Positions 1 to 59,366 of a stretch of 64,000 nt of DNA are shown here, in pieces. The notes under the pieces were generated by a model. That model was not told the origin of the DNA and did no database searches. It was given only the letters and a program-made list of their open reading frames with translations. This DNA is from Cyanophora paradoxa CCMP329. Lineage: Eukaryota; Plantae; Glaucophyta. Both the position numbers and the translations under genes were made by a program. The stretch is from contig QPMI01000710.1 of NCBI GenBank assembly GCA_004431415.1, positions 1-64,000 of the forward strand, in the 5' to 3' direction. How positions within the stretch are numbered: position 1 is the stretch's first letter; every line of letters starts with the position of its first letter.

Positions 1-1243
1 CTCGATATGCAAAGGTGGAAAACCCAGATGACCATATAGTTCTCTTGGATGCAAATAATCTGTATGGTTTTGCTCTCAGTTCAAGAACTGCCCATTGGCG
101 ATTTTCGGTGGGAAGATGTCACAGAGGCACTTAAAGAGACCCAGGACGAAGTGCCTTTATTGAAGTAGACCTGGAATACCCACAACTCTCACAGATCATT
201 ACGATTTTCCACTTGTAGTCAATAAAGAACATGTCACCACCGAAATGCTGGGTGAGTATCAACAAAACTACTGGATATCACAGGTGAGAAGATAAGCAAA
301 GACCCCAAACTCACAGCAACATTCTCACCCAAAAACTATGTGATTTCCCAACCTCTCTTGATCTATCTTGTGAGCAAGGTATTATAATAAGAAGGTTCAC
401 AGGGTTCTCTCATTTGCAACTCTGCATTCATGAAGAGTTTATATTGATCTAAATACGAAACTGAGGCGCCAATCTATGTCCAGATTCGAGAGTGACTTCT
501 TTAAAATTAATGAACAATGCAATCTATGGTAAATGCCTCGAATCATGCAGGGGTCGCTCTGTGGTAAGATTGCTAACAGTGAGAAACTCTGCAAGAAATA
601 TGCTGCAAGTCCACTCATCAAGGCAACCAATGTATTAAACGAAAATGCTGTTGCCTTGAGATGTACTCAAAGCATGTTCACTTAGATAAACCTGTTGCAA
701 TTGGTGCTTTTGTGCTGGATTTCGCGAAACTCCATAATAGCAGGTTCTTTTATGATGTGGTGAGGAGAACTTGGGAAACAGCAGAGCTACTATTCCATGA
801 TACAGATTCTTTCTGTCTACTGCTGCATACAATGATCTTAAATAATGAGATGAAGCGAATTTCTGAACACCTGGATGCAGTAATTATGATACTGCCACCC
901 TCTCTTGATAGGAGAAATCGCTTGATTCCAGGTAAATATAAAAAACGAGTTTCCCAATGCAAAGATTGTGGAGTATGTAGGTCTGAGATCGAAACTCTAT
1001 GCTTTCAGAACTGAGACCTTTGATAAAATAAAGATGTCTGGTACTTCCTCCAAAGAGGTTCACTTTGATGATTTCAAGAGATGCCTGTTTGAAGGCATCA
1101 CCAAAACAGTAGCAGTAGTAAACAAGCGAAGACAAGACCACAACCTATATGATTTGGAGAGCAGAAGGGTGGCTCTAAACCAACTCGATAGCAAAAGGAA
1201 GATATTAGACGATGGAATTCACAGCATTCCATTTGGGCTCTAA
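1..1243 (+). pseudogene. Protein-primed family B DNA polymerase, C-terminal half, multiply frameshifted
   Basis: Motifs recoverable across frames: LDANNLYG (from 46), LPIGDF, FIEVDLEYP, FFK-LMNNAIYGK (about 500-535), LLFHDTDSF (about 790-810), EYVGLRSKLYAF. The indels may be decay or assembly error. Confidence 0.88.
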
Positions 1244-1401
1244 TCTACTTCATCAATCTTTCTTTTTCTTTGGTTTCGCTCTCCAAGAAGTAATAAACCG
1301 CGAATTAAATGCAGCAGCCATATACATCTTAATCCTGGATCATTGGGCTCAATTGCAAAGTAGTTTGGAATTGTGTTCTCCTTCCACACAGACTCTTGCA
1401 T
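1240..1401 (-). CDS. Small viral ORF, 53 aa (MQESVWKENT...KIDEVD), unknown function
   Basis: Fills the gap between polB and the integrase. The ATG sits in a TAAATG context like other viral starts. Below the ORF-track cutoff. Confidence 0.35.
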   Translation of the reverse strand: MQESVWKENTIPNYFAIEPNDPGLRCIWLLHLIRGLLLLGERNQRKRKIDEVD

Positions 1402-1426
1402 TTATTATATGAGAGATAAGGTAAAG

Positions 1427-2827
1427 ATGCCTTCTACACAAATAGGATTGAGACAACCACCAAGAATTGTGAGAAAAGAGGCAATTGAAGATCGAGGGAA
1501 TATTCTGCCCATCACAGTTCCAGTGGAGGAGAAGAGCAGTCGAATATTAAAAAGATCAGAGATGGTCAAGCAATTAATCCCAGAGACACTCCCAGCTGAG
1601 ACAGCACCAAAAGAGTCGAAGATTGCTAAGAAGTTCTATGATCCCAGGACAGGCTACAAGGGATTTACTGCAATGAGACAGGAACTACCAGAGGAGAACT
1701 ACAAGAAGATGAGAGAATGGTATGATAAGCAGGAGGTTGTCCAAATTAATGCACCCACCCTATCTCGAAAGAGAGATCCCATGATTCCAATTAGGCAACC
1801 CCTTGATACCTATGTGATTGATCTGCTCTTCTTTCCTGCATACAAAAAGCAGAATGATGGTTATGATACATTTATGAGTGCAATGGAGTCAACCCTGAGA
1901 ACAGGGTTCATTATTCCAATGAGAGACAAAAGTGCTCTTACTACACTTGCAGCATTCAAGCAACTTGAACAGAGAGTCCCCAGACCAATTGTTCGCATTC
2001 AGAGTGACAGTGGAAGCGAATTTACCAATGTATTATTCACAGATTATTTGGGAACGAAATTCATTGAGCATCAACTAAGTGATGTTGCAGATCACAGAAC
2101 CCAAGGTCGAATTGAAGCCTTTAACAGACAGATCAAGAGATTGATCACAAACTACTGCATTGCAAATAATACTGCACGATTTTTTGATGTGTTGGGTGAT
2201 ATTGAGTATAATTATAATAATACCATCCACTCTGCAACCAAGAGAAAACCAGCAGAGACCACAGAAGCCCACTACAAAGAGATTGTGAGTATGGAGGATC
2301 AGAGGTTCAAGAAATCGATTGAGTATCTTGATGCTCTGAAACCTGGTATGTTTGTGAGAGTGAAAGTTGAAAAGAATCCATTTGCAAAGCAGGGAGTGAA
2401 TTGGTCTCGAATTGTTTATAGTGTGGAGGGCAGAGAGGGCTTCAAGTTCAGAATCAGAAGCCCCAGTGGTGAGATAGTTGATGGTAGATTCGCTTTTCAT
2501 GAACTGCTGCCCATTAAAGGTGTTGAGTATCATGAAACTCCCACAGTGGATGCTCTTGAACAGGCAAAAGAGGAAGCCAGGGTTGATTCAGCAATCAGAA
2601 AGGAGGGCATAGAAAAAGCAAGTGAAGTACCAAAAGAACCCCTCACAGAAGCAAGAGCACAAAAGAAGGGTAGAGTAGAGAAAGAATTAAAGAAGTTGAC
2701 CATAGCAGGAACCCAGAAATTATCAGAAGTTAACAGTCAGAGGTGGTATAATGACTTTTCAACCACCAAAGAAACATATACTGCACCCCAAACTCGATTT
2801 AATTTACGGAGTGGTCAGAGGAAATAG
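1427..2827 (+). CDS. Retroviral-type (rve) DDE integrase, Polinton-like
   Basis: Uninterrupted ORF with the catalytic triad in YVIDLLF, IQSDSGSEF and QGRIEAFNR, followed by YNNTIHSATKRKP. First ATG in a GTAAAGATG context is at 1427. Confidence 0.93.
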   Translation: MPSTQIGLRQPPRIVRKEAIEDRGNILPITVPVEEKSSRILKRSEMVKQLIPETLPAETAPKESKIAKKFYDPRTGYKGFTAMRQELPEENYKKMREWYDKQEVVQINAPTLSRKRDPMIPIRQPLDTYVIDLLFFPAYKKQNDGYDTFMSAMESTLRTGFIIPMRDKSALTTLAAFKQLEQRVPRPIVRIQSDSGSEFTNVLFTDYLGTKFIEHQLSDVADHRTQGRIEAFNRQIKRLITNYCIANNTARFFDVLGDIEYNYNNTIHSATKRKPAETTEAHYKEIVSMEDQRFKKSIEYLDALKPGMFVRVKVEKNPFAKQGVNWSRIVYSVEGREGFKFRIRSPSGEIVDGRFAFHELLPIKGVEYHETPTVDALEQAKEEARVDSAIRKEGIEKASEVPKEPLTEARAQKKGRVEKELKKLTIAGTQKLSEVNSQRWYNDFSTTKETYTAPQTRFNLRSGQRK

Positions 2828-2828
2828 A

Positions 2829-3071
2829 TTAACAACGCTTTCGGAATCTCTTAGACCTCTGGCGAATTTTCCTCATTTGTCTATCTTTTTCAATAATTTC
2901 CAAGAAGAAAGTTTCAAGGTTTGAAACCAGCTGGTAATTATAAACAAAGAACAGTCTCACATGCTCTGGCTGTGACATGAAGAAATTGTAATAGAAAGCA
3001 GTTTTGAAATCATGGATCCAGTCTGATTGGGCAGCATGGATGATAACAGGGTCTTGGTAGATGGGATCCAT
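2829..3071 (-). CDS. Small viral hypothetical protein (80 aa, basic C-terminus)
   Basis: ORF converging tightly on the integrase stop; no recognisable motif. Confidence 0.45.
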   Translation of the reverse strand: MDPIYQDPVIIHAAQSDWIHDFKTAFYYNFFMSQPEHVRLFFVYNYQLVSNLETFFLEIIEKDRQMRKIRQRSKRFRKRC

Positions 3072-3259
3072 AGCAGAAGTTGAGAGAATCCAGAAAATCC
3101 TTGTCAATTTTTTATTTTGTTAGTGCCCGATCTCAACGGAATCTGATAGCCGCTGACGAGAGGATTCCGAATCTGTTTTCAGAATTGAAAACGGAGCAGT
3201 TGGTGAAGAGTTACCTGCGTTTATCGGTTGACTCAACTTGACTGTGAACTGCGCGCAAT

Positions 3260-3913
3260 CGCGAACCGTCAAGTATATATGCATATATATATACATATAT
3301 ACACTTTTTTACCAGAAATTCCGTTTGACCAAACCGAGATTACGGAGGTTTTGTGTATATATGCGGTATATATGTCGAGAGTTGTCTGTTGGATTTCCTG
3401 GGCTCCCTCTGGACATCAATCTTGTAATGATTGTTGTATTTGATACAAAACATCAATGGAAGTTGTATTCGATAGCGATGATGTACATGATTTTTGAGGC
3501 TGATAGAAAATATTAATGAGTTTTGAGGCTGATAGAACTTATGAATTGTTGTTGAGGCTGATAGATTGCAGAAGACTTTTTGATGATGCAGATAGAATTT
3601 CCAGATGCAGACATCTATGATTGTTGTATTCGATACTAAACTCTGGTCTTCCCTATTGATGAAAGACTCCGGTTATGACTAATTGTTGATATCTATATCA
3701 ACAATGAGTCGTCTTCGGATATCTACCTCAACAATGAGTCATAACTGATATCTATATCAACAATAAGTCATTACCTCCGAAAGAGTGCAACATATATACA
3801 CCATATCTACACCATACTTTTCGTGTGACATCGAACCTCCGAGTCGCCGACCGACCAATCCGCTATTTTGTGGTCAAAATGTATATATGCGCATATATAC
3901 TTGACGGTTCGCG
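3260..3913. repeat. Non-coding segment bounded by 23-bp perfect inverted repeats, with internal opposed arrays of about 30-bp units
   Basis: CGCGAACCGTCAAGTATATATGC at 3260-3282 and its reverse complement at 3891-3913. GAGGCTGATAGA at 3496, 3525 and 3554. Inverted GATATCTAxxTCAACAATxAGTC x3 at about 3688-3769. Confidence 0.85.
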
Positions 3914-4219
3914 TTACTACTGTCGGCATCACTTCACGTTACGACTGTGGGGCTGTCGGCATCTTCAAACGCTTGTATCTCACCACCAGATCATCACCTT
4001 GCAACCGTCGACATATCGCTGGAAAGCGCTTAAAAAGACCTACACGATGGTGCAGGTATCAAGTATATATACGTATATATTACATACAAATATTTCGAAA
4101 AAACGATTAATCGGCTACTTTCTACTGTAAGGAACATACAGTAAAATAATGCGAAAATACAGTAGCTACTGTTAAAAAAGCCATAATCTGGCGCACCATA
4201 CATCAGAAGTCCTGAATTT

Positions 4220-5761
4220 CTATACACTTCGAATAAATGCACCTGTGACATCCACTCTCATAGTTGGGGCATTTATATATACAAGTGGATAAATACGAAT
4301 ATATCTGGTTCTCAGAGGGTAGCCAATATAGAAAACGTCTCTAATAGAGGTTGGATACCCAGAACTGTATGAGACATCACCACTATTATGGGCATTATTA
4401 ATAGTTTCACACATGAACATTCTGTTAACACCTTCATACTTGATAAATGACCAGGAAACACCATCTTGTGAGGTTGCAACATTGAAGGTCTTAACAAAGG
4501 CATTGGTCACACCAGACCCATATGCAATTATAGATGCTACCTCATATATATATGGGAAGGATACTTGGAGATACTCAGTGGGAACACTCCATATCCCATC
4601 AGGAGCAGATGCATTTGCCTCCCAACCAGTTAATGAAGGTCTTGCTTTAAATGCCTCCCTTCCAATTTTTGATGATGAAGCAGTGAATGCACCATCTGAT
4701 AGAAGATACCAGTTAGCATCAATGGGAGGTATGTTATTCAGAGTGGATGATATATAGAACCTTGCAGGGTTCTTGATTTCATAATTTGCAACCAGTAAAT
4801 CACAGAGTCTATCAATCATCACAGTGTTTGCTGCTATATACATTTCGGTTGCATCTATCATATCTGGTATCTTAGAGGTATCATCCAGAGAGTTTACTAT
4901 GGTCTTTGGAAGTGGAACAGAGAGTCTATAATATCTTGCATATCCTTGGTCATCATTATATGGGAGAAACTCTTGCATCTTTTCCAGGGCTGAGAGTTCA
5001 CTTGCAGCCATCAACATATTAATTAATGGACTCCCAGAGGTCGAAGCAATCCATGAGAGAATGCCCCAGCTGTTGACATCTTCATAGGAATATCCCACAT
5101 TTGGGGCATCTGTTTCATTGACCTCACCACAGGATATACTGATCACAATTATATCATCATCATCATCATAGATCTTTTTAGCATGGCTGTAACCACATAC
5201 ACTGGGATTGTTGTTACCTGATATTGCACCATCAATTAGAGACATCCCATCATAGTTCACAGGTGAGAAGTAAGTAGGTGCAGCAGAGGTGGATCTTGCA
5301 GCAATCTTGCTGGGGATGGATTTGTAGGAATTATCATTGGTGATAAAGATGGGCTTCATACTCACAGTATCAAAACTTGTTATCACTACATCTTTTAGAG
5401 AGTCTTGAATGAGAGACTCACCAGTAACAGTGAGAATGGCTGTCTCCAATGGGGTCACATCATACTTGGTGTTGAAAAGGGCATTATCTATAATATTTCT
5501 GGGATTAGCAAAGATTAAAGGCAATTGATTGAGATAAGTGGAATGCAAATCGGTTGCAGTGAGTTTAGGTTCGTTTGGAAATTCGGGATTTTTCACATTG
5601 AGACCAATTGCAATAATCCCACCAGTGGATGTACCACTCACCAGGTCAACAAGATCTATTACTCTTTTTCCTGTTCGAGTTTCGATTTCTTTTAGCAATC
5701 TCGTAATAATTATACCACGAGCTCCCCCACCTGAGAGACTGAGAATTACACGAAGGGGCAT
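4220..5761 (-). CDS. Patatin-like phospholipase fused to a C-terminal F5/8 type C (discoidin) domain
   Basis: Patatin motifs LSLSGGGARG, GTSTG (GxSxG), SAAPTYF and DGA. Discoidin pattern EYLQVSF...FVKTFNVATSQDGVSW...PLRTRYIRIYP...MRVDV. Confidence 0.92.
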   Translation of the reverse strand: MPLRVILSLSGGGARGIIITRLLKEIETRTGKRVIDLVDLVSGTSTGGIIAIGLNVKNPEFPNEPKLTATDLHSTYLNQLPLIFANPRNIIDNALFNTKYDVTPLETAILTVTGESLIQDSLKDVVITSFDTVSMKPIFITNDNSYKSIPSKIAARSTSAAPTYFSPVNYDGMSLIDGAISGNNNPSVCGYSHAKKIYDDDDDIIVISISCGEVNETDAPNVGYSYEDVNSWGILSWIASTSGSPLINMLMAASELSALEKMQEFLPYNDDQGYARYYRLSVPLPKTIVNSLDDTSKIPDMIDATEMYIAANTVMIDRLCDLLVANYEIKNPARFYISSTLNNIPPIDANWYLLSDGAFTASSSKIGREAFKARPSLTGWEANASAPDGIWSVPTEYLQVSFPYIYEVASIIAYGSGVTNAFVKTFNVATSQDGVSWSFIKYEGVNRMFMCETINNAHNSGDVSYSSGYPTSIRDVFYIGYPLRTRYIRIYPLVYINAPTMRVDVTGAFIRSV

Positions 5762-5810
5762 CTTTACTTAACTCAAATTTAATAAATCTCTATAAGTAGA
5801 GTAAACAGGG

Positions 5811-8800
5811 ATGAGTTTCAATTATCCAGCAAACCTACAAACCATTCCCTCATCTGGAAGAGGGAAGACAGATAACAAACATGTGAATTTCGATAACTTG
5901 ACAGCCAGAGGGTCAATCTCAATTGATCACAGTGCAGATGAACCCTCAAAGACTCACCCAAGAGAGCATGCACTTTCAATAAACGAAATGGATCCCGAAA
6001 AAGAGGATGTGAGTGTTGCTTTCAGCATGGGGAATGTGAAAGCGAATCAAGTAGCCCAGATTAAAGCAACCAGGAGCAGACCAAGAAAACTGAAAACCAG
6101 TGGAACCCATCCAGATATTCCAACTCGATTCGATAGTGGAAGGTTGATATTCAATGTTCAAAATGAGAAGGGTGGGCATCAGAGTGGTTTAAGAATCTAT
6201 AATGAAGGATCAAATGCAATTGCACAAATTCCCGAAATATTACAGATAGCACCCCATGGAGAGACCAACAAAATCGAGTTCACTAACAATGTTTATCCAA
6301 GAGATATTGTGGCGAATTCGGCTTCTAATGCGCAATTCGGTTTCCAACTACCTGGTGATACAGCAAAGAATAAGGCGTCTATCACTGTCAACAGTAGCCC
6401 CACTCAACCAGTAACAATTCATTTACACCCAGACCTTGTCGAAATGGACAGGCACCTTTTACCTCTGGTAACCAACACCAAAGATCTTGGTATCAGAACC
6501 AGGCAATGGCGAAATATCCATGGAAGCAATGTCTATGCAAATGGAGAGAAACTTGTAAGTGAGAAGACCATAAGAGAGATCTTTGAATATTATGGACCTG
6601 TCCCAGTTCCCTTTCCTCTTCCATGGGATCCACCAGATTTAACACCAAAAAAGCAACCAGGAAGAGAGTACACAGCAGATGAGACAGTTCCTTTTGGGCA
6701 ACACATTGTGAGTTGGGAGCAGGTTCGCAATAAACCGATAATTGAACCAAGAAAGCAAATTGATGAGCAATATTTACCTCCTGAAATCGATATTTTGGAG
6801 CTGGACGAATACCAATTCGTTCCAGATGAGGAGGAGTATTTACCAGATGGTTTTGACCCACAGGAGTATGAATATGATCAATATGACCCCAATGAGGAAG
6901 AGTATTTACCAGATGGTTTAGATCCACAAGAGTATGAGTATGAACAGAATTATGAACCCCATGAGGAATATTTAGCAGATGGTCTCGAACCACCAGTTGT
7001 GGATTATGAGCAACCATATGAACCCCATGAAGAATTATTACCAGATGGATTTCGACCTGAGATTTGGGAGTTCTTCCCTGATTGGGAGCAGATCAACAAT
7101 AAACCAGCCAGATTTCCACCAGAGGATCACAACCATGACTGGGATGAGATCTTAGGTAAACCAGAGAAATTCCCACCAGAGGATCACAGGCATGACTGGG
7201 GTGATATTGATGGAAAACCAGAAGAGTTTCCACCAGAAGATCACAGACATACATGGAGCGAAATAGATGAACAACCAAAATTCGCATCAGCAGGTGATGT
7301 TTTCGACACCACACATGGTGTTACTCTCTACCAAAGTAATACCATACCAGAAAGATTACGATTAGATGAATATTATGTGAATCGTAAAGGGATTGATGCA
7401 GGCACCACAATGGAAGGTGAATTATACATCAGACCACCTACAAGAATGCAGATAATTGCAGCAGGCGGAAATTTCGGTTTGATGGACACCAAACCAGGTA
7501 TCTATTTAACCAGTTACTATGCTGATGACATCCCAATGACAGGAGGATTGATCTCTCTACCATCTGATCCAGTCAACTATGATGACAAAGATGCAGCAAT
7601 CCAAATTAATGTTACTGATGTGAGTGACTTAGATAGTTCAAGACCCAAATTAATATTCACCAGAGAAAGATTGTTACCCAATGCTCTCATTGGAAATCGA
7701 GATGACTACAAGAGATGCGAAATATCATGGATAAAAACGAATTATAATGGTGGAGTGGGTGAGGGTCTCTTAGAAATCAATCAGAGGGCAGCAGCAAAGA
7801 ATATTCACAATGAGACCATATCCAGAGTGGTAACAGAGGATTACCTGCAAGCCCAGAACTACATAGATGAAACAGAACTGAATACAATTATTGCAGGTAT
7901 TAATATTGGTGTGACAGGGGATTACCTTCCTCTCACAGGAGGGATTATTGATGGAACAGTAACAGCATGCAACTTCTTTGTCCATACTGAAAGCAATCAA
8001 ACCTTTCCTGTGGTTCACCCAGGAGGTGAATATGAGATCCCAGATGACCCATCTATTATGCCCATTAAGATTGACCTACCTTCTGATTATGTTGGAAGGG
8101 GTGAACTGAAAACGATCTCTTTCACAGGAGATTATAATGATCTCCTCAATAAACCCACCCCATCCAATTTACACCCTGTTGCATACTCAGGTAGTTTCCT
8201 TGATCTGAATAATAGATCACACACCCACACAAAGGCAGAAATTATAGATTTTGCACACACTCACACCAAATCCCAGATAACAGATTTTGCTCACTTCCAC
8301 ACCAGAGCAGATATCACGAATTTCGCTCACACTCATTTTAAATCTGAAATCACAGATTTCGCACACACTCACACAAAGTCACAGATAACAGATTTTGCAC
8401 ACACTCACACCAAAGGAGAGATTACAGACTTTGCTCACACCCATGTAAAGAGTGAGATAACAGATTTTGCACACACTCACACCAAAGGTGAGATTACAGA
8501 CTTTGCTCATACTCATACTAAGTCTCAAATTACAGATTTTGCTCACACACACCTTTGGGGAGATATTACAGATCGACCTACTCTTGATCCATTCACAGCA
8601 ACCACTATTAGAGCCAACAACACGATGTATGTAGGATCAGGTCAGATTGTAGAACCAGCAGGACCTATGTTTGAAGAAACATGGTTCTTCCACAATTCGC
8701 AGAATTACTTTGATAAAACCTTACTTGTTCGTGGAAATGCATATGCAAGGAATTTCTATGCTATGAACCCCTCAAATAATGCGACCATCAGTCGATGCAT

Positions 8801-9140
8801 TACAGAAGCAGATCTTTCCAGTCAACTCAATGCATATTTTAATGGGAAAATTCAAGCAGGTAAGTATGTTTACACTACTCCTGTTTTAAATTACAATAAT
8901 CTATATGTGTTCAATCTTACTATCTATTTTACCAATGCCTTTGCTTCTCCTCCTGTTGTTACAGCAACTGTAAGGCATGAAGGACAAGAACCAAATTATC
9001 AAGTAACTCCCGTCATTTTTACTGTGAACCTGTTGAATGTTTACAGTAACTATTTCACTTGTGAACTTTTCACTGATCCATATGCAATGAATAATTCATC
9101 CAAAACTGTAACAATCCATTACATTGCTGTCGCAATTTAA
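5811..9140 (+). CDS. Large fibre/spike-like protein (1109 aa) with acidic repeats, HxH repeats and a lectin-like C-terminus
   Basis: Phage-fibre-type motifs LLPLVTNTKDLG..QWRNIH, WxxIxxKPxxFPPEDHxH x3, FTGDYNDLLNKP and HTHTKSQITDFA x10. C-terminal FTNAFASPPVVTATV resembles H-type lectin/gp53-like tips. Confidence 0.8.
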   Translation: MSFNYPANLQTIPSSGRGKTDNKHVNFDNLTARGSISIDHSADEPSKTHPREHALSINEMDPEKEDVSVAFSMGNVKANQVAQIKATRSRPRKLKTSGTHPDIPTRFDSGRLIFNVQNEKGGHQSGLRIYNEGSNAIAQIPEILQIAPHGETNKIEFTNNVYPRDIVANSASNAQFGFQLPGDTAKNKASITVNSSPTQPVTIHLHPDLVEMDRHLLPLVTNTKDLGIRTRQWRNIHGSNVYANGEKLVSEKTIREIFEYYGPVPVPFPLPWDPPDLTPKKQPGREYTADETVPFGQHIVSWEQVRNKPIIEPRKQIDEQYLPPEIDILELDEYQFVPDEEEYLPDGFDPQEYEYDQYDPNEEEYLPDGLDPQEYEYEQNYEPHEEYLADGLEPPVVDYEQPYEPHEELLPDGFRPEIWEFFPDWEQINNKPARFPPEDHNHDWDEILGKPEKFPPEDHRHDWGDIDGKPEEFPPEDHRHTWSEIDEQPKFASAGDVFDTTHGVTLYQSNTIPERLRLDEYYVNRKGIDAGTTMEGELYIRPPTRMQIIAAGGNFGLMDTKPGIYLTSYYADDIPMTGGLISLPSDPVNYDDKDAAIQINVTDVSDLDSSRPKLIFTRERLLPNALIGNRDDYKRCEISWIKTNYNGGVGEGLLEINQRAAAKNIHNETISRVVTEDYLQAQNYIDETELNTIIAGINIGVTGDYLPLTGGIIDGTVTACNFFVHTESNQTFPVVHPGGEYEIPDDPSIMPIKIDLPSDYVGRGELKTISFTGDYNDLLNKPTPSNLHPVAYSGSFLDLNNRSHTHTKAEIIDFAHTHTKSQITDFAHFHTRADITNFAHTHFKSEITDFAHTHTKSQITDFAHTHTKGEITDFAHTHVKSEITDFAHTHTKGEITDFAHTHTKSQITDFAHTHLWGDITDRPTLDPFTATTIRANNTMYVGSGQIVEPAGPMFEETWFFHNSQNYFDKTLLVRGNAYARNFYAMNPSNNATISRCITEADLSSQLNAYFNGKIQAGKYVYTTPVLNYNNLYVFNLTIYFTNAFASPPVVTATVRHEGQEPNYQVTPVIFTVNLLNVYSNYFTCELFTDPYAMNNSSKTVTIHYIAVAI
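6820..7060 (+). repeat. Coding tandem repeat, about 22-aa acidic units (EEEYLPDGxxPxxxxYxQxYxP) x4
   Basis: GAGTATTTACCAGATGG and variants recur every 63-69 bp or so. Confidence 0.85.
8220..8579 (+). repeat. 36-bp coding tandem repeat, HTHTKSQITDFA x10
   Basis: Directly visible in both DNA and translation, with synonymous divergence between units. Confidence 0.95.
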
Positions 9141-9159
9141 CTATTTGATTAATATAAAG

Positions 9160-10113
9160 ATGACCTCTCTATTAGAAATCCCAAACTATGAACTTGCAGC
9201 CAAATCACTGCACAGCACCTCTCATGGAGTAGTTGATTCAACCCCTGGGTATATTTGTACTGAAACTTCAAGTAATACCTCTTTCACAGAGAATAATATA
9301 CTCAGAGTCAAAGAAATTCGATGTGATAGGAATGGAGGCAAGATAAGAACCACAGGAATTATTATCTCGAATAAAAATCAGGTTCAAGCAGGTCAAGTAG
9401 TCCCAGATTCAGCAATATATGATAATGTAGGTGGATTTACCACAGCACAGATAGTTTCTTTTGGTAACACAAGTAATACTTCCGCTCTTGTAGTCAAGAG
9501 TGGAGGAGCATACTTTGGAGAGGCATTAAAGGTGAATGGAACAGTAACAGCATCCATACTAAATGCTGGAAGTGGAATGTTTGAGAGTCCAATAAATTTT
9601 GAGGGTGGATATAATGCGAGTAGTTTTTCAGTTGGTGTTGGTGTCTTTTCCACAATGTTAAACACACCTGAAATTGAATCATCGAATGCACTCAATATCA
9701 AGAGAAATGCAGTGGTTACAGCAACCATAAACAATGTTTCCCCTTCAATAAATCTAATTAAATATCTGAAAGCTCCTCACCCTCGGTTTTGTATTGTAAA
9801 TTATTCAACATCAGCAGTTACTGTGGGAACCACATCAACAGCAAGAAGATTCGCTTTTAACAGAACTCTTGTGGATGCAAGCAATAATATCACATTATCC
9901 ACAGGCACCTTTACAGCACCTGTGTCCGGAATTTATAGATTCTTCTTCATTGTTCAAATGTCAACAGCTTCATCAACAGGGGAGTGTAGAGTTGCATTTA
10001 GAAAGAATGATTTGGCTCTTTCCCTCAATCGGTTCAAGAATTTTCAACTTACAATGGAAGGCGAAGTGTTCATATGGAGGCTTCTTTTGCTGTATATGCG
10101 AACGAATTTGTGA
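9160..10113 (+). CDS. Fibre paralogue 1: shared N-terminal module plus C1q-like head (probable frameshift near the 3' end)
   Basis: N-module PGYICTE..SF...ILRVKEIRCDRNGGKIRTT..VVKSGGAYFG. C1q signature FNRTLVD...GTFTAPVSGIYRFFF. Confidence 0.78.
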   Translation: MTSLLEIPNYELAAKSLHSTSHGVVDSTPGYICTETSSNTSFTENNILRVKEIRCDRNGGKIRTTGIIISNKNQVQAGQVVPDSAIYDNVGGFTTAQIVSFGNTSNTSALVVKSGGAYFGEALKVNGTVTASILNAGSGMFESPINFEGGYNASSFSVGVGVFSTMLNTPEIESSNALNIKRNAVVTATINNVSPSINLIKYLKAPHPRFCIVNYSTSAVTVGTTSTARRFAFNRTLVDASNNITLSTGTFTAPVSGIYRFFFIVQMSTASSTGECRVAFRKNDLALSLNRFKNFQLTMEGEVFIWRLLLLYMRTNL

Positions 10114-10226
10114 ATGTTATACAAACCTGGACATCGTCCATGCAATATGATGCTACAATACAAGGTATTACCTGTTTTGGGGGCATCTCATCAGTAGATT
10201 ATAAACTTTTTGTTGGGAATTTATAG

Positions 10227-11247
10227 ATGGCTACCCAAATTGCAGTTCCTGTTTTCTGTTATGCAGCACCTAAATTGCATCAACTGAACCACACAGTTAC
10301 AGATGCTATTCCCGGGTTTATTTGCACAGAAACCACAGGAGCAGATTCGTTTACTCAAAATTCGATTATCAGATGCAAGGAGATTCGATGTGATAGAAAT
10401 GCTGGAAAATAAGAACCACACAATTAATCGTAAGTAACAAGAATCAGGTGTTAACAGGTGGTGTAGTTGCTGATGCAGCTATTTATGATGATGCAGGTGG
10501 GGTGACCACACCACAGATTGTTACTTTTGATGGGACAGAAAATAATGCAGCACTTGTAGTTAAATCAGGTGGAGCATGGATAGGTTCGGAGCTTTTGTGA
10601 ATGGAACACTCTCAGCTGCAAACGTCTCAATTTCAGGCCAAACGACATTTACAGGTGTTGTGAATGCAAATGGTGGTCTTTTTGTTCCTACTTATACAGT
10701 CCCTGTGATGACCACAACCACAAAGATTCAAACACCTGAAATAGATACAGGAGCAAATGTAGATCTCATTCTGAAAGGCAATAGCACAGAAGTCGCACGA
10801 ATTGATGCAGGGGGTCTTACAATCGCAGCAAACTTTTATTTGAAGCAAGAAACCCAACCTCGATTTTGTGTTGGGTTTGGTGTAGCAACAAGAAGTGGAG
10901 TATATGGGCGTCTTACTAATTGGTTGCATGAATTCTTTGATAATACCAACTCATTTGATGTAGTAGAAGGGAAATTCACAGCGCCTATAAGTGGAGATTA
11001 TAGATTCTCTCTTAATTCTTATAGTATTGTTACCTCATCTGTGAGTGTAGATCTGAAAGTAAATGATCAGAATGTTTCAACAGAATTCAATTTCAGGGTA
11101 AACAACTCACAAACAGTAACCAACAAAACAATCATTTTGAGCGCAATACTCAGACTTGGAGCCGGGGATAATGTCTCTATTTATGCTGTTGATACTTCCA
11201 TTTCAGAATTCACAACGTTTAGTGGCGAATTGCTGAGCATAATTTAA
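10227..11247 (+). pseudogene. Fibre paralogue 2: shared N-terminal module plus C1q-like head, split by frameshifts
   Basis: 10227-10412 gives PGFICTE..IIRCKEIRCDRNAGK. Homology to paralogue 1 continues in another frame through 10413-10575. 10576-11247 ends in FDVVEGKFTAPISGDYRFS...LRLGAGDNVSI...FSGELL. Confidence 0.8.
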
Positions 11248-11266
11248 TTTCTACAAGTAGTTTAGA

Positions 11267-11530
11267 ATGTCGAATATATACCAAGTAGTTCTGACTGATA
11301 CCGAAAAGTTGGGAATGGAATATTGCGCTGCTTCTGTTCAGGACTGGATTGATAATGCTGCCCACAACAGGGCAAGAATCGCAATTGATGAGATTGTTCA
11401 GAAAGAGATCCAATCTTGCATTTCATCAGGAGTTCAAATACCTACCTCAAAGGAAGCCATTGTATTACAGGCATTCCAAAGGGGAACTGTAAAGAAAGGC
11501 ATTGAGTATAACAATGTCACAGAAGAGTAG
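11267..11530 (+). CDS. Small fibre-associated protein (87 aa), possible assembly chaperone
   Basis: Clean ORF directly after the C1q gene. The pattern LTDTE..MEY.A.SVQDWIDNA..NRARIA.DEIV recalls, from memory and unsearched, small hypothetical proteins that follow fibre genes in aquatic tailed phages. Confidence 0.6.
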   Translation: MSNIYQVVLTDTEKLGMEYCAASVQDWIDNAAHNRARIAIDEIVQKEIQSCISSGVQIPTSKEAIVLQAFQRGTVKKGIEYNNVTEE

Positions 11531-11568
11531 TGAACATTATTTTTCTTTCCTTCTTAGTAAAAGAAGCA

Positions 11569-12413
11569 ATGGGTGAATATAATCGAGTTCAACTTCCAAT
11601 ATATTCCCTTGGATCCCCTGCTATGCACTTTCGCCAGCATGAAGTTAATGATGAGGTTCGTGGTTTAGAATCCACAGAGAGACCCAATTCCAATGGTAAC
11701 TCTTTTGATAAGAATTCGATTATTCGAGTTAAAGAACTGAGAGCAGACAAGAATTCGGGTGTGGTTAAAACAACTCGACTCCTTGTCTCAAATGCGAACT
11801 TCTTCCAACCCACTAATGGAGGTCCTGATGCTTACAGTGTAGACCTGAAAGCCCTCGATTTTGACAAGAATTCTGCTGCTGTAACTGTGAGATCAGGTGG
11901 AGCATTTATTGGTGGTGGTTGCAGAGTTTCAGGTCAACTCTCCTCATCAATTGCATACAATGATGTCCAGATACTCTTGAACAGAATGTTGAAGACCCAC
12001 AACGAATTCGATTATATATACCAGTTGCACAACAGCCAATTATTCAATTTTACCAAGGTTATACTGTCACACTTGAAAACTCTGAATTGATTGAAGGAAC
12101 CAAAAGAGTAATGAGAGGGCTGGTCATTCCTTCTGCAATGCTTTCTTTATGTAGAGCCAACAATAACCAGCCAGGTCACAGATACAATTTCAGTGTTCAA
12201 GGATATGATCATTTCGGCACAGGGTTCTGTGTTTATAATAACAATTTCACCTATGATCTGTTTGTTACAGATATTGGAAAATATACAATTACAGTTATGG
12301 GTATCAGAACAGATATAGCTGCTGTCTCAGCTCTAAGAGGTGTTACTCCTGATACTCTTTCTCAAACAGGGTTTTACCAGGAACCAGATGTGATTGATAA
12401 CCCAACCCCATAA
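11569..12413 (+). pseudogene. Fibre paralogue 3: shared N-terminal module plus non-C1q head, frameshifted around 11970-12090
   Basis: GLESTE..NSFDKNSIIRVKELRADKNSGVVKTT..VRSGGAFIG. The C-terminal part YDHFGTG...GKYTITVMGIRTD parallels paralogue 4. Confidence 0.75.
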
Positions 12414-12436
12414 ATTATATATTACTTTAATGTAAA

Positions 12437-13264
12437 ATGGCTGCCCCAGTAGAGCGAATTATTACACCCCAACTCTCATTAGCAGCACCTGCAAATCACG
12501 TTTTGCAGCATGCTACTTTTGATGATGTAGAAGGTCTCCAATCCACAGAAGTACAACCTACAATGAATACCTTTGGTTCCACCCATAAACTGAGATTGCA
12601 GGAACTCAGATGTGATAAAAATAATGGTATAGTTAAGACAACGAAACTCCTTGTGACAAATGCGAACTTTTCTGCCCATTATGGAGACCCAGACAGTTAT
12701 GGTGATCCTCTTTCTACTTATTCTTTTGAATCTCGGTCGGGAGCTATTAACTGCAAAACGGGGGGAGCATATATTGGTGATGGTCTTCGGATTGGTGGAG
12801 CTGTTGGTGCGCCTCTTTTCGTAAATGATCAACCCAATCCCATTGATCCCAACACCAGAATTCGCACCTATGTCCCCAGTATGAATGCACCATACATTAT
12901 AAAGATCTTCCCAATTGTTGTGAATGAGCAGACATCAGTAGTTGATTCTCTTGTTGAGATTGGCGACCACTACAAGGTGGTTGTCGATATCCCACCAGAT
13001 GTTTATGCTGTTTGTCAAGTAGAGGGTGGAACCCCAAATATTGCAGTTGTGATCACTCCATATGATAATTTCGGAATTGCTTATCATGGAGTAAATTTCG
13101 GTCTTGAAGATTACCAGTTCTTGGTGAGAGCCACCAGATTTGGTATCTACAAATGCATTCTCTATGCTGAGAGAACCGATGCTATTGCAAGACAGAATAC
13201 ATATGCAGAATATTACGGCACAAATCGATACTTCCCCATTTTCGGGCAGGATACTGCTCCATAG
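12437..13264 (+). CDS. Fibre paralogue 4: shared N-terminal module plus non-C1q head, intact
   Basis: GLQSTE..NTF...LRLQELRCDKNNGIVKTT..KTGGAYIG. C-terminal TPYDNFGIAY...GIYKCILYAERTD. Confidence 0.8.
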   Translation: MAAPVERIITPQLSLAAPANHVLQHATFDDVEGLQSTEVQPTMNTFGSTHKLRLQELRCDKNNGIVKTTKLLVTNANFSAHYGDPDSYGDPLSTYSFESRSGAINCKTGGAYIGDGLRIGGAVGAPLFVNDQPNPIDPNTRIRTYVPSMNAPYIIKIFPIVVNEQTSVVDSLVEIGDHYKVVVDIPPDVYAVCQVEGGTPNIAVVITPYDNFGIAYHGVNFGLEDYQFLVRATRFGIYKCILYAERTDAIARQNTYAEYYGTNRYFPIFGQDTAP

Positions 13265-13291
13265 AAATCTCAGGTATATATAGAGAGAGGG

Positions 13292-13564
13292 ATGGATGAT
13301 AAAACAAAGAAATTCATAGAATCTGCAATGATGGTTCATGGTGATGCTAAATTCGATTACAGTGAGACAGTCTATAAGAAAGCACAAGAGAAGGTCTCTG
13401 TTAGATGCCTTAAATGCAACAAGATCCTGCAAACCTACCCATTTAATCATGTAAGGGGAAGTGGATGCAGAGAGTGCAACAAGAAATCCTCTCATGCATA
13501 TAGAAAAAAGACTACATCAGGAATTGTGATAGATGATAAACCAGTAGTTTTATATTTCGATTAG
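13292..13564 (+). CDS. Zinc-ribbon protein (DUF723-like module)
   Basis: FIESAMMVHG..FDYSETVY......V.VRCLKC.........H..GSGCREC pattern. Confidence 0.7.
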   Translation: MDDKTKKFIESAMMVHGDAKFDYSETVYKKAQEKVSVRCLKCNKILQTYPFNHVRGSGCRECNKKSSHAYRKKTTSGIVIDDKPVVLYFD

Positions 13565-13710
13565 ATCTTTGAGAGAGAAATGAGAATCTTTCCCCATTTT
13601 CCCTTGGTGATTATGCATGTATCAAAGCAGTTGGGACAGGTCTTGTGGTAGTGCAACAGAATGATATCCACCAACTCATAAGGTAGCACTCTTGCTAAGA
13701 TGATTCGCAT
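13561..13710 (-). CDS. 49-aa ORF with an F-box-like start (LPYELVDII) and CPNC
   Basis: MRIILARVLPYELVDIILLHYHKTCPNCFDTCIITKGKWGKILISLSKI fills the intergenic gap. Confidence 0.35.
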   Translation of the reverse strand: MRIILARVLPYELVDIILLHYHKTCPNCFDTCIITKGKWGKILISLSKI

Positions 13711-13750
13711 TCTACCAATCGCGTTTTTAATTTTTCTAAATTATTCATAA

Positions 13751-14152
13751 ATGAATACTCATCGAGGCTTCCATGTGATGCTGGATTACAAATTCAGAAC
13801 CCAATTAGCAGTAGGAGTGGAAAACTTGGAGACAACAACCAGGTGGTTAATGCAGTTCTTACAAACTATTATTCAAGAGCAAGGTATTCGAGTAGTTCAC
13901 AAGCATTGCGAGATTTTCGATGGTGGTATTTCTCCTCCTGGTTTTGCAATGGTTCTTCTGCTGGATGAGAGCCATTGCACTGCTCACTGTTACTCAAATG
14001 AAGGTATGTTGGCGATTGATATATTCAGTTGTGGATTAGAAGCAGAGCGAAAAACCACGAGAGTATCTCATGAGATAGATGAGAGAATAACAGGTGTGTT
14101 TTCAGGGTTGGAGAAATCGGAGAAACATAGAGTATTGCGATTTCCGAGTTAG
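13751..14152 (+). CDS. speD: Bacterial-type pyruvoyl-dependent S-adenosylmethionine decarboxylase proenzyme family
   Basis: GFHVMLD...F..G....GFAMVLLLDESHCTAHCY.NEG..AIDIFSCG, including the ES self-cleavage site; 133 aa. Confidence 0.88.
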   Translation: MNTHRGFHVMLDYKFRTQLAVGVENLETTTRWLMQFLQTIIQEQGIRVVHKHCEIFDGGISPPGFAMVLLLDESHCTAHCYSNEGMLAIDIFSCGLEAERKTTRVSHEIDERITGVFSGLEKSEKHRVLRFPS

Positions 14153-14210
14153 TTGACACTGAGAAATTCAGAATTTCAGATGGTCTTACTGAAAATGGTC
14201 AGATAATCGG

Positions 14211-14648
14211 GTGTGACACCTATTTAATTGACTGTGACGCCTCTTTAATTGACTGTGACGCCTGTGACGCCTGTGACGCCTACTTTCAAACTTTTTAAAA
14301 TTTTCAAAAATGACAGACTTCTGAAAACAGCCGTCACAGCCGTCACAGGCGTCACACCCAATTAAAAATGGAATCTCTTTCTCTTACTGAGATTTTCGAG
14401 AATATATTCTTGTCTTACTGAAATCCGTCTTGTGACACCTCTGACACCTACAAAACACTATCCATTAATCAACCTTTTTGAAAATGCGAAGTTGTCTTAC
14501 TGGATATCGTCTGCAATTTCGCTGTGACACCTAATTTAATTGAGTGTGACGCCTGTGACGCCTGTGACACCTACTTTCAAACTTTTTAAAATTTTCAAAA
14601 TGACAGACTTCTGAAAACAGGCGTCACAGCCGTCACAGGCGTCACAGA
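14211..14648. repeat. Duplicated module of about 130-145 bp: opposed 9-bp iterons flanking an AT-rich core
   Basis: (TGTGACGCC)x3 - TACTTTCAAACTTTTTAAAATTTTCAAAA...CTGAAAAC - (G[G/C]CGTCACA)x3, at about 14211-14356 and 14523-14647. TCTTACTG occurs six times in 14185-14700. Confidence 0.9.
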
Positions 14649-14759
14649 CATTCCACCCCTCTTACTGACTTTCTCAAAAACAAAACTATCTCTTACTGAA
14701 TATCATTTGAATACTACCTGTCACACTTGAATTCATTTATTCTGTTTTATAGAACATAT

Positions 14760-15015
14760 GCAATCTAATCGATTGTTCAATTGGAGACCATGCAACTCTG
14801 TGACACTTTTTCGATCTAAAATATGCATCCGCAATCTCATCGATTGTTTAATTGGACATAATGCAGTTCCGATATATTCCAATAGAAAATCCCGCAATCT
14901 AATCGATTGTTTAATTGGAGATAATGCAACTCTGTGACACTTTTTCGGTGCAAAAATGTACATCAGCAATCTCATCGATTGTTCAATTGGACACAATGCA
15001 ACTCTGGGACATTTT
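14760..15015. repeat. Subterminal tandem repeat, 4 units of 63-72 bp
   Basis: GCAATCTMATCGATTGTTYAATTGGA....ATGCA at 14760, 14831, 14894 and 14966. Confidence 0.9.
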
Positions 15016-15328
15016 TTGCGTTTTTCGATACAGAATGGGCGGTGGTCTACTTCAATACCAGAGAGATATATCGAGTTTATGCGAATTTATGCAATTTAAT
15101 CGCGATTATATCGATCTTTAAGTAGTTTAATGCAAATTAATCGCAGTTTTATATGTAATCGACAAAGAACATAATCAATCGATATAAGATCAATTGATTC
15201 AATCGTAAATATGCATAAAGTTAAACGCGTTTTTCATTTTTAATACAAAGTTTGCATTAATTTATACAAAGTTTGCATAAAAAGTTAAAGAATTTAATCG
15301 ATAAATACGTATTTTAGTATTAATTTTG

Positions 15329-15413
15329 ACACATATGTATAAACTTATTTAAATCCAGGAGCGGAGCGCGAAGCGCGAAGCGGAGGGATTTAAATAAGTT
15401 TATACATATGTGT
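15329..15413. repeat. Terminal hairpin: 28-bp perfect stem with a 29-nt purine-rich loop
   Basis: ACACATATGTATAAACTTATTTAAATCC (15329-15356) pairs with 15386-15413. The loop is AGGAGCGGAGCGCGAAGCGCGAAGCGGAG. Confidence 0.95.
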
Positions 15414-18400
15414 GGATGAGACGGAGGAGATGAAAGCGGTCGAAAGCGTGCTTAATGACTTGCCGGAGGAAGCATCAACGAACCAGATTCTTCTCAAGGT
15501 GCTCCTTTTAATCACTCTCATCTGTGAGCATCGCTCTACGACTTTGACAATATTAATTGGTCATTCGCTTCAGATGCGTAATGCTATGTTGAATTGCCGG
15601 ACAATGTCTAAACAAGAAGCTGCATTGTACTGCCTAGGTGCGCCTCTTGCTCTTCGTGAGAGAATGAGCTTTGCAATTGCCAACTGCAGCCGCTTGATAG
15701 GTCTTCCACTGTTCTTTTCATCCCGTTCTTCATGCTCGGTAGCTGCATACCTTCCTGGAAAACGAGTGAGGCGGCTGAGGGACAAGCGGGAGCTCGAATT
15801 CCGCATGGATCGCAATCCAGAAGATCAAGACACGTGGGCTGACGATCAAGTGGATTATTACATGGCGCGCACTCGAGATCCAGCAGGTGAGGTTTTTAAT
15901 CACATTATAACTCTTCCAGCTGTACACGCTGAGCTTTGGTTCACAATTGCAACCAGGAGCAAGATCAGTCTTCGAGAACTTGACCTTCATGCAATACATG
16001 AATTGGTTCAATCTTCACTTCGGGGGCAATGGTCCTATCGGCGCTGGACCAGATTCAAACCTTGCTTCCGAGAACATTGATGCCGAGGCTCTTGAAGAAG
16101 GAGGAGACCTCGATTGCTGGGAACCAAATCCTCTGTGGTTCGATGTGGAGCATCGGAAGCAGCAACCACAATCAACCGCGCCACTGCGCCCCAAGGTTCC
16201 TGGCTCCGGGTAAATATGATTTGATATTATGTCTATACGTATCAGCCCTGAATAGGTTTAATCAATCGTATGCGCTACACAGTGTATGCCCACGGACAAA
16301 ATTGATGCCTCCTTTTCGGATTCATGAACTCCAGCAGCGTCGACGCCCTCGGACAGTCCGAGTGCGAGTGCCCAAGGACAGTGATCCTGACAGTTTGTAC
16401 AGTCTCCTGTTTATGCACGTCCCCTTTCGAAACGAACTCCATGACTTACTGGGCGTTGAACGCGAGGAGGACGTCACTCCCCAGATTATTGCAGCTGCAG
16501 TCGTCCGTCACCGTGCCACCATTGACTACAACATCCAGTTCACCCATTGCCATATGGCAGCTCGTCTTGGACGATCCCTTGAAAAATTTGACAAGGATTC
16601 CCGTCTCGCTGCTGCAGCTGGCAAGGATCTCCACCCGGATCCGGACGCACAGTCAATTACGTCAACTGGCACAGAGTCATCTGCAGCTCCACTCTGTCCC
16701 CCTGCTTCTGATGCATGTGTCATGACTACTGCAGACCTTGAAGCTCCCGAACCCAACAATCAAGTGCATGCGAGTGCTTCGATGGCAGTCGACTGCAATC
16801 CGTGCAACGATTTTGATACGGGAATTGTCACCGGTACCTGCAGCATCGCTGATGCTCCCTGCTCAAGCATAAGCATGCCTCCAGCTGCAGTAGCTCCAAC
16901 ACCCGGTGTGAACCTGCAAGACATTGATTCTATGTCACTGGATGTGCTGGAAAGGATGCTCAAGCCCAAACAGCGGGAGATGATGGTGGCTGTTCGTCAA
17001 ATGACCAGTCGCCTTGAATCACATTATGCAACACAGTCAGCGTAAGTCCCGTTTACATATGTGCATGCGCATTCAAGTTTCCTCAGACATAAACATTTTC
17101 TCTAGGCACAATGCGGCAGTGGCTGCCAACTCGGGGATGCCTGTTTGTCGGCAGGTCCAACCCCCTCCTGTCACTTCCAAGCTCCCAATCCACGTGGCAT
17201 GTGTTGGACCTGGCGGGACAGGTAAATCGCTATTGATCAAGACCATTGTGAAGTACATGCTTCAATGGAGTCGCGATCATGCCAACATGCAACAACCGTG
17301 TGGAAGTGGCGGCGTGCTGCTCATGTCGTGGACAGGCGTTGCTTCGTTCAATATTGGGGGCGGGACTGTATCGTCTCTTCTGGCGTTTGGAGCGCCTCCC
17401 AAGCCCGGTGAAACAAAGAGCACGTTCTATCCTCTATCCGGACAGCGGGCATGCCAGTTCCAAGCAAAGTATCGCGATGTGGAACTCATCATTATCGACG
17501 AAATCAGTTTCGTAGGTGGCAAGAATTTCTCACGGATCAACCAACGTCTGCAAGAGATCTTTCAGAGTGACGCCCCCTTTGCGGGCAAGTCTGTTATCTG
17601 CTTTGGCGATTTCTTCCAGCTACCTCCCGTGAAGGAGAAGAGAATTTTTAATGTACTTGAGCCACGTATGTGGCGTACTTTCCGATACGAAGATGATTGC
17701 GTGGAGGACAATCATCTGTGGTTGTCCTTCTTTCATCCTATCTTCCTTGATGAAGTAGTTCGACAAGCTGGCGATACAATGTGGAGAGACACTTGTCTTC
17801 GTCTGCGAGCTGGGAAATTCAGTGATGCAGATCAGCGCCTTATCCTTTCAAGGTACAATTCCAGTTCCAAGAGTGAATTCGAAGGGCTCGAAATATTTAC
17901 TACATCCACTCTGCACTCAGGTCGGCCAATCCGAAGGAGAACAAGCACGGCCACGCGCAGCTGGCAGAAGAACTCAAAACCACCGTCTGGCAGAACGCAC
18001 TACGTGTTTTTCCATGCAACAAGGACGTTGCAGCGTACAACCGAGCTCGCCTGCAAGCCACCTCTCGTCGTTATTTGGCCCCTATCATCACGCTCGAGGC
18101 TTTCGACGAGGGAGAATATGACAAGATCTCAAAGACGTGCAAACCTGCCGATCCAGTCGATGTAAGTAATTATATAAATTCCAGCCTTGCTGTTATTAAT
18201 GCGTGCTTATCAATGCCGGTTTTAGAATAAACAGGGCGAATTGTTATCAGCCAAATTCACATTTTGCCTGGGCTCTCGGGTGATCATGGTCCTGAACGAG
18301 GATACTCACGACGGCCTCGTCAATGGAGCTCTGGGCACATTGGTGGGGTGGGAATTTGATGGACCGGTCCCATCAACCACTTCACACATTCGCTTGCTCG

Positions 18401-38100: not shown

Positions 38101-38305
38101 CGACGGAGGCGTAGTTAAAGGCGTTGACGGCGGGGCCCACGCCGAAGGCCGCCGCGATCGCCTGCGGGGGGGTACGCGGTCAGGCGAGGGGCGCGGAGGG
38201 GCTCCAGGCGGGGACGAAGGGGGTACGCGCTTGCTGGCGGACGAGGCCAAAAAGCTTGGAGATGAGGGTACCCAGGGCGACGATGCCGGCGATGCCAGCA
38301 AGGCT
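35124..38305 (-). CDS. murJ: Lipid II flippase MurJ/MviN core, cyanobacterial type, intron-split
   Basis: SLAGIAGIVALGTLISKLFGLVRQQ-AIAAAFGVGPAVNAFNYASVVPGFFFILLG-GINGPFHSSMVSVLSK. Also PATLSSGMGQINVYMDLLFAS, VVRLVYERAAF and RDVLVRVFYALGDGAVPF. Confidence 0.92.
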
Positions 38306-59023: not shown

Positions 59024-59366
59024 CTGTATGAGCCTGTATCGCTCGCTCCGCCGCGATCGAATCACCCAGCTGGTATTGCTGAGGAGCGAGTCGAACCTTC
59101 TGTAATGCCGCACCATCGTAATCGCCGCTGGAATTCGAACTGGCCCGCCTGTAGTGCGCCAAATAAAATGGCGCGCCATCTTATTTTTATGGCGCACGCT
59201 TTTGAGCCATCGCAGAAAAAAAGGCGCCGGCCAGCGCAGCCGGAGCTTTGCGTTGGGGGGGCTACTACGACTCCCAGCGTATGATGCAATAGTACTATAG
59301 CTACAGGTAGCGCGCACAGCAGCAGCCGGCAGACAGCACTGCGGCAGCGGGCGGGGCGGTCCTCAC

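What the first reader, a model, noticed from the sequence alone, without database searches (positions are those of the whole stretch)
1..15413. Endogenous Polinton-like virus with unusually rich accessory cargo in a probable glaucophyte genome
Seen: pPolB plus rve integrase, followed by about 10 kb of entry, adhesion and metabolic genes, ending in a sharp terminus. It is AT-rich and intronless within a very GC-rich, intron-dense host. Known: pPolB plus rve integrase defines Polintons/Mavericks and mavirus-type virophages. Inference: this may be an undescribed lineage, possibly a virophage-like defensive provirus. The integrase, lipase, large fibre and speD are intact, so the frameshifts in polB and three fibre genes may be read errors or early decay.
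Basis: partly seen in the sequence, partly recalled or inferred. Interest (0 to 1): 0.8.

Follow-up and report, generated by a model that had tools for sequence, protein, structure and literature searches.

The report
Hairpin-ended Polinton-like provirus in an alga
This is the right-hand part of a real, many-copy virus-like element ending in a perfect DNA hairpin, probably sitting in the genome of a glaucophyte alga and probably a member of an already catalogued family of Polinton-like viruses, and its broken genes are likely sequencing errors.

Summary
Window 1-15413 (39% GC) carries a Polinton-type PolB, an intact rve integrase, a patatin-discoidin lipase, five fibre-like genes and speD. Short-read contigs of 4 of 4 DNA runs carry the 15413/15414 junction and show many variant copies. 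A contig from a fifth run ends at 15413 and continues into what reads as the left flank of the same insertion: a terminal repeat of at least 227 bp and a 6-bp target duplication, inside a Helitron-like PIF1 element. The frameshifts are probably assembly errors. The lineage is probably not undescribed: published tables list 156 glaucophyte elements with this cargo, and 366 Cyanophora capsid genes, none of virophage type; no protease was found in the 156. Capsid, ATPase and the left half lie outside the window and were not seen. Defence against giant viruses is untested. Verdict: new member of a known kind, with an unusual terminus worth testing.

The parts
1..1243 (+). 3' part of a Polinton-type family B DNA polymerase gene, broken at about 12 places in this assembly
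   Evidence: high-depth short-read contigs differ by single-base indels at 11 listed places
1409..2827 (+). rve (DDE) integrase, 472 aa, intact, D138-D200-E236
   Evidence: homologue P0001 71% identical
2829..3071 (-). 80-aa ORF, no family hit
3100..4219 (.). Non-coding variable region with a 32-bp inverted repeat (3260-3291 / 3882-3913) and short direct repeats; 3312-3628 has only 2-3 times flank depth
4220..5761 (-). Patatin-like phospholipase fused to an F5/8 (discoidin) domain, 513 aa, catalytic motifs present; likely entry protein
5811..9140 (+). 1109-aa long fibre-like protein: repeats, phage tail-fibre similarity, weak C-terminal H-lectin hit
9160..10204 (+). Short fibre-like gene 1: shared N-terminal module plus C1q head; frameshifted near its 3' end (end approximate)
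   Evidence: contig 9480-10207 has 0 substitutions and 2 gaps
10227..11247 (+). Short fibre-like gene 2: shared module plus C1q head; two breaks
11267..11530 (+). 87-aa ORF between fibre genes, no convincing family hit
11569..12413 (+). Short fibre-like gene 3: shared module plus non-C1q head; broken near 11960
12437..13264 (+). Short fibre-like gene 4, 275 aa, intact: shared module plus non-C1q head of unknown fold
13292..13564 (+). 90-aa zinc-finger ORF resembling part of homing endonucleases
   Evidence: PHROG endonuclease E 6.6e-11
13751..14152 (+). S-adenosylmethionine decarboxylase (speD), 133 aa, intact
14153..15328 (.). Non-coding subterminal repeats; at least 15187 onward belongs to the inferred terminal inverted repeat
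15329..15413 (.). Terminal palindrome: 28-bp perfect arms around a 29-nt loop with three GCGNAGC motifs (15361, 15368, 15375)
   Evidence: (z -11.9, 0 of 200 shuffles); identical in the X18 contig
15414..15419 (+). Inferred 6-bp target-site duplication (GGATGA)
   Evidence: X18 contig runs on from 15413 with the reverse complement of these six bases
15414..19683 (+). Interrupted Helitron-like element with a PIF1 helicase: the insertion target, not part of the virus
   Evidence: Pfam PIF1 E 3.6e-17; unbranched 4378-nt contig in 4 of 4 runs

Best explanation
This is the right-hand 15.4 kb of a multi-copy integrated element that is likely an intact Polinton-like provirus of a Cyanophora-type glaucophyte, likely inserted by its own rve integrase with an inferred 6-bp target duplication into a Helitron-like element. 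Shown: gene content, terminus, junction, many variant copies, terminal palindrome. Inferred: it spreads by excision, copying of the linear genome by its PolB from the terminal repeats, and re-integration or packaging; particles would bind cells through one long and four short fibres with exchangeable C1q, lectin or other heads and cross membranes with the patatin-discoidin lipase; speD would supply polyamine synthesis. Integrated copies are probably mostly silenced by CpG methylation. The frameshifts are probably assembly errors.
For: Junction in 4 of 4 DNA runs: an unbranched 4378-nt contig begins at 15386 with 0 differences. X18 contig: 15187-15413 with 0 differences, then a flank beginning with the reverse complement of 15414-15419. 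Single variant contigs have 12-28 times flank depth at the integrase and first short fibre, and 28-93 times at speD; 654 substitution sites. Breaks: 9 gaps against 3 substitutions in contig 269-583 and 2 gaps against 0 in 9480-10207; 13 of 13 polB segments are stop-free in the frames the indels predict, once one assumed break near 290 is added. Shared N-terminal module with different heads; the C1q fold of homologue P0006's head, E 1.7e-10. Same cargo in published glaucophyte elements. CpG o/e 0.33-0.35 in coding parts against 0.93-1.09 outside the element; CpG methylation of viral-origin genes in C. paradoxa (PMC12344493 passages).
Against: No capsid, penton, ATPase or polB N-terminus was seen: the left half is outside the window and no genome is held. 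The left end and duplication rest on one contig of depth 2.4 from a run under another organism label. Only 28 element letters lie on the junction contig, under the tool's 31-letter bridging rule. Contigs drop rare variants, so a truly decayed single copy is not excluded; 27 indel rows were not shown and the break near 290 was assumed. Errors cluster in polB while the integrase and long fibre are clean. Protein priming is untested. The host species is inferred, not shown.
Confidence: 0.8

Rival explanations
1. It is a decaying copy: the frameshifts are real and this insertion is dead, although relatives in the genome are intact.
For: About 12 breaks cluster in 1.2 kb of polB while 1.4-kb and 3.3-kb ORFs are clean; Logan contigs drop rare alleles.
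Against: Indels outnumber substitutions against the closest contigs (9:3 and 2:0); at 438 and 503 all laid depth carries the other allele in 4 of 4 runs; a 2-3-fold-depth contig at 3312-3628 is retained; several breaks sit in short homopolymers; 227 bp of terminal repeat is identical in the X18 contig.
Confidence: 0.12
2. It is a mavirus-type virophage or other giant-virus parasite that defends the host.
For: PolB plus rve with a 6-bp duplication is also the mavirus layout (recalled; rve in mavirus-like virophages). Terminal palindromes occur in Halocafeteria virophages. Most of the element had near-zero cover in 4 of 4 guessed-RNA runs, which is only compatible with latency.
Against: Published glaucophyte elements: 0 of 156 virophage capsids and 0 of 156 proteases; all 366 Cyanophora capsid genes fall in two unnamed clusters, none in the virophage columns. 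The listing (6 of 7 papers, titles and abstract starts) showed no glaucophyte giant virus.
Confidence: 0.06
3. It is a capsid-less self-synthesizing transposon carrying leftover virion genes.
For: No capsid gene in the 15.4 kb seen; only 2 of 156 glaucophyte elements hit that paper's PLV capsid profile.
Against: Five fibre-like genes and a lipase are kept in frame or nearly so; 97 minor capsids and 139 A32 ATPases in the 156; divergent Cyanophora capsids were found by iterative search, with HHpred hits to giant-virus capsids.
Confidence: 0.02

Closest known systems
Glaucophyte (Cyanophora paradoxa) Polinton-like viruses of Bellas 2023 (PMC10120064) and Bulzu 2025 (PMC12220804)
   Same: rve, PolB, lipase, AdoMet_dc, discoidin-patatin fusion, PTR plus H-lectin fibre, many copies
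   Different: Nothing shown to differ. The passages and tables read do not describe termini, the duplication or the shared fibre module ('hairpin' 0 times in both main texts). Identity to a catalogued copy was not tested.
Halocafeteria seosinensis virophages and PLV subtype 4 with terminal palindromes (bioRxiv 10.64898/2026.07.28.741278, section 7)
   Same: Palindrome at the end of the terminal repeat next to the target duplication; rve integrase
   Different: There the palindromes go preferentially with non-pPolB replicases; here one sits with a Polinton-type PolB and holds three GCGNAGC motifs.
Mavericks/Polintons (adintoviruses)
   Same: PolB of Polinton type (recalled from motifs), rve with D,D(35)E, terminal repeats, 6-bp duplication
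   Different: Ends read AC...GT, not AG...CT (the latter recalled); the probable family lacks the protease and falls outside the Maverick capsid columns.
Mavirus and Cafeteria endogenous virophages
   Same: PolB plus rve, low GC against the host, multi-copy integration
   Different: No virophage capsid or protease in the probable family; no helper virus known from my searches.

Membership tests
Polinton-like virus (endogenous) | Double jelly-roll major capsid, minor capsid and A32-like ATPase | not testable with these tools
   Left half outside the window, no genome held; no related loci found. Present in the probable family in print.
Polinton-like virus (endogenous) | Terminal inverted repeats | tested here: met
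   One contig matches 15187-15413 exactly and continues into a flank that fits the other side of the same site; single contig.
Polinton-like virus (endogenous) | Integrase with matching target-site duplication | tested here: met
   Intact rve; inferred 6-bp duplication.
Polinton-like virus (endogenous) | Integrated in host DNA in many copies, with a GC shift | tested here: met
Maverick/Polinton in the strict sense | Protein-primed PolB | tested here: inconclusive
   PolB motifs collinear with P0004; no profile hit; terminal-protein region outside the window.
Maverick/Polinton in the strict sense | Adenain-like maturation protease and Maverick-type capsid | not testable with these tools
   Not in 1-15413. 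In print: 0 of 156 proteases, and capsids outside the Maverick columns.
Maverick/Polinton in the strict sense | 5'-AG...CT-3' termini (recalled) | tested here: not met
   The right end reads ...GT at 15412-15413.
Mavirus-type virophage | Virophage-type capsid plus protease | not testable with these tools
   Not seen; 0 of 156 and 0 of 366 in the probable family.
Mavirus-type virophage | Depends on and inhibits a giant virus | not testable with these tools
   Needs infection experiments.

The most novel reading that the evidence does not exclude
The terminal palindrome is the working origin: the excised genome folds back and its PolB extends the hairpin or is loaded at the triple GCGNAGC loop, instead of using a terminal protein. 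With the giant-virus-like capsids reported for Cyanophora elements, this would be a small integrating virus with hairpin-primed replication, linking Polinton-like viruses to hairpin-ended giant viruses, and inducible in a cultured alga. Against: no flipped loop was seen (no strand-change joint), this copy's capsid is unseen, and the motif is common elsewhere (74 viral loci).
Probability: 0.15. Interest if true: 0.75.

Novelty: new member of a known kind. Interest (0 to 1): 0.4.

Why it matters
Polinton-like proviruses of a basal photosynthetic lineage have been counted but, in the papers I read, not described end to end. This copy looks intact and recent, so it is a candidate for induction in culture. 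Its palindromic end beside a PolB tests a fresh hypothesis that terminal hairpins prime replication and go mainly with non-PolB elements. Four paralogous fibre-like genes with a lineage-restricted base and exchangeable heads offer a compact model of receptor switching. It also warns that frameshifts in repeats of long-read assemblies can be misread as decay.

Tried and rejected
No whole genome is held, so the left half could not be read. Related-locus scans found nothing: integrase in viral and metagenome contigs, 275-aa ORF, fibre-module alignment in both, exact terminal arm in viral contigs. The protein atlas gave no answer. The monomer fold of the 275-aa ORF had pLDDT 38 and no PDB match at E 0.001 or better; the shared N-terminal module stayed under pLDDT 50 in P0006 too. 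The trimer prediction of residues 1-140 gave no verdict. No RNA holder was listed as such. In guessed-RNA runs X15 and X16, contigs of depth 15-33 covered 12.1-14.2 kb at about 90-98% identity, with none on the flank; X18 and X21 were thin; these are not shown to be RNA and are not used as evidence. The triple GCGNAGC motif lies in a stem of 15 bp or more in 1 of 74 viral loci, so the motif alone marks no family. The PDB search with the flank ORF 15415-16077 gave only chance hits; the Helitron Rep reading rests on PIF1 plus a recalled motif. No Rfam hit in 1-23000 and no tRNA in the element. Earlier findings: none in three look-ups. A chimeric assembly was rejected. Papers with no Cyanophora or glaucophyte mention in the main text. 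No phylogeny was built, because homologue searches gave one integrase and one PolB relative.
Full report
Observation. The first 15413 bases are 39.4% GC, the next 7.6 kb 52.9%, and 32-60 kb 72.9%. In order on the element: the 3' part of a family B polymerase in many frames; a 472-aa rve integrase with D138, D200, E236; an 80-aa ORF; a repeat-rich spacer; a patatin-F5/8 fusion on the minus strand; a 1109-aa protein with phage tail-fibre similarity and a weak H-lectin hit; four paralogous short genes, two with C1q heads; a zinc-finger ORF; speD; and 1.26 kb of non-coding repeats.

The end is real. In 4 of 4 DNA runs laid (of 14 holders with half the words or more), one unbranched 4378-nt contig starts at 15386 and matches to the end of the stretch with no difference. 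It has only 28 element letters, as expected where many copies branch, and this is under the tool's bridging rule. A 300-nt contig of run X18 matches 15187-15413 exactly and then runs on for 73 unlike letters beginning TCATCC, the reverse complement of window 15414-15419; six letters would match by chance about once in 4096. Read by hand, the reverse complement of that flank is open in the frame of the window's flank ORF and puts a Y-x-x-x-Y-x-x-K motif directly before it, which recalls the two-tyrosine motif of Helitron Rep (pattern recalled; PMC6213432 passages confirm two tyrosines and an SF1 helicase). The simplest reading is the left end of this same insertion: terminal repeats of at least 227 bp and a 6-bp duplication, as rve integrases make (PMC12220804 passage). 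It rests on one contig of depth 2.4.

The last 85 bases are a palindrome: 28-bp perfect arms (15329-15356, 15386-15413) around 29 bases, folding at -30.6 kcal/mol, z -11.9, 0 of 200 shuffles. The loop holds the only three GCGNAGC motifs of the element on either strand. Such mini-hairpins occur at phage and plasmid priming sites (PMC13037366 passages). The triple motif occurs in 74 viral loci, 1 of 74 inside a stem of 15 bp or more. Terminal palindromes beside duplications were reported for Halocafeteria virophages and one PLV subtype, preferentially with non-pPolB replicases, with hairpin priming as an untested model (10.64898/2026.07.28.741278, section 7). No strand-change joint showing a flipped loop appeared.

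Copy number and frameshifts. Between 2037 and 2794 contigs per run lay on the stretch, with 654 substitution sites. Single variant contigs had 12-28 times the flank contig's depth at the integrase and first short fibre and 28-93 times at speD; these are rough, and assume the flank is single-copy. High-depth contigs differ from the window by single-base indels at 11 listed polB places (27 further rows not shown). With the listed places alone the predicted frames failed after about 290; with one assumed break there, 13 of 13 segments were stop-free. The closest contigs show 9 gaps to 3 substitutions (269-583) and 2 to 0 (9480-10207), the pattern of long-read error rather than decay. Contigs drop rare alleles, so real decay keeps some odds.

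Fibres. The four short genes share a module of about 110 residues; a profile found 8 proteins among 1.84 billion representatives, 7 with this module and 1 unrelated-looking RTX protein. Three carry C1q heads, one another head, and two are short. A model of P0006 gave a confident C1q head (best PDB E 1.7e-10) and no confident N-terminal fold. A conserved base with exchangeable heads is the layout of receptor-binding fibres; that role is inferred.

Host and prior description. A host MurJ exon at 36087-36182 matched cyanobacteria in 4 of 4 loci, fitting an alga with plastid peptidoglycan. PMC12220804 (section 13 part 1 of 2, Table S6) lists 156 glaucophyte elements: rve 85, PF03175 49, lipases 89, AdoMet_dc 66, A32 139, one minor-capsid profile 97, virophage capsid 0, PLV capsid profile 2, proteases 0. 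It names a PTR-PTR-H-lectin fibre in a C. paradoxa PLV and discoidin alone, paired or fused to patatin in Rhizaria and glaucophytes. PMC10120064 (section 9 and supplement rows) gives 366 C. paradoxa capsid genes in two unnamed clusters (272 and 94), with HHpred hits to giant-virus capsids. PMC8502044 mentions related contigs in one passage. PMC12344493 (passages) reports CpG methylation enriched on viral-origin genes in this species; the element's coding parts have CpG o/e 0.33-0.35 against 1.23-1.26 in its non-coding parts. I did not test identity with any catalogued copy. That the termini are not in print rests on searches and on term look-ups; preprint supplements were not seen.

Mechanism and verdict. 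Most likely (0.8) an intact, mostly silent provirus that excises, is copied by its PolB from the terminal repeats, and re-integrates or is packaged; fibres, lipase and speD would serve attachment, entry and polyamine supply. These steps are inferred. It works like a Polinton in replication and integration genes, but membership of Mavericks or virophages is unlikely on the family's published content. Capsid and ATPase were not seen. New member of a known kind; interest 0.4, carried by the hairpin end and the apparent intactness.

Noticed in passing
window 15414-19683: Intronless 53% GC PIF1-helicase element, likely Helitron-like; the virus appears to have inserted right behind its putative catalytic tyrosine motif.
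   Followed up: partly
window 3260-3913: 32-bp inverted repeat enclosing a low-copy (2-3 times flank depth) repeat-rich segment, with no obvious duplication; possibly a nested or swapped segment. Unexplained.
   Followed up: partly
window 14995-15356, run X15 record 8: A 790-nt contig aligns up to the start of the hairpin loop and then runs on unlike for 428 letters; another loop or a truncated end in another copy. Letters not seen.
   Followed up: no
window 12100-14200: Guessed-RNA runs X15 and X16 hold deeper contigs from diverged copies over the last genes, while the interior is nearly bare.
   Followed up: partly
window about 36000-38300, minus strand: Intron-split cyanobacterial-type MurJ (lipid II flippase) gene.
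   Followed up: partly
window about 59300-63100: Lower-GC stretch with a cysteine-rich ORF (weak CSRNP_N hit) and tandem repeats; possibly another transposon.
   Followed up: no
window 49312-49402, minus strand: ARAGORN calls a tRNA-Arg(gcg) in very GC-rich DNA; likely spurious.
   Followed up: no
L046: The only one of 74 viral loci with the triple GCGNAGC motif inside a long stem (19 bp, AT-rich), like this terminus.
   Followed up: no
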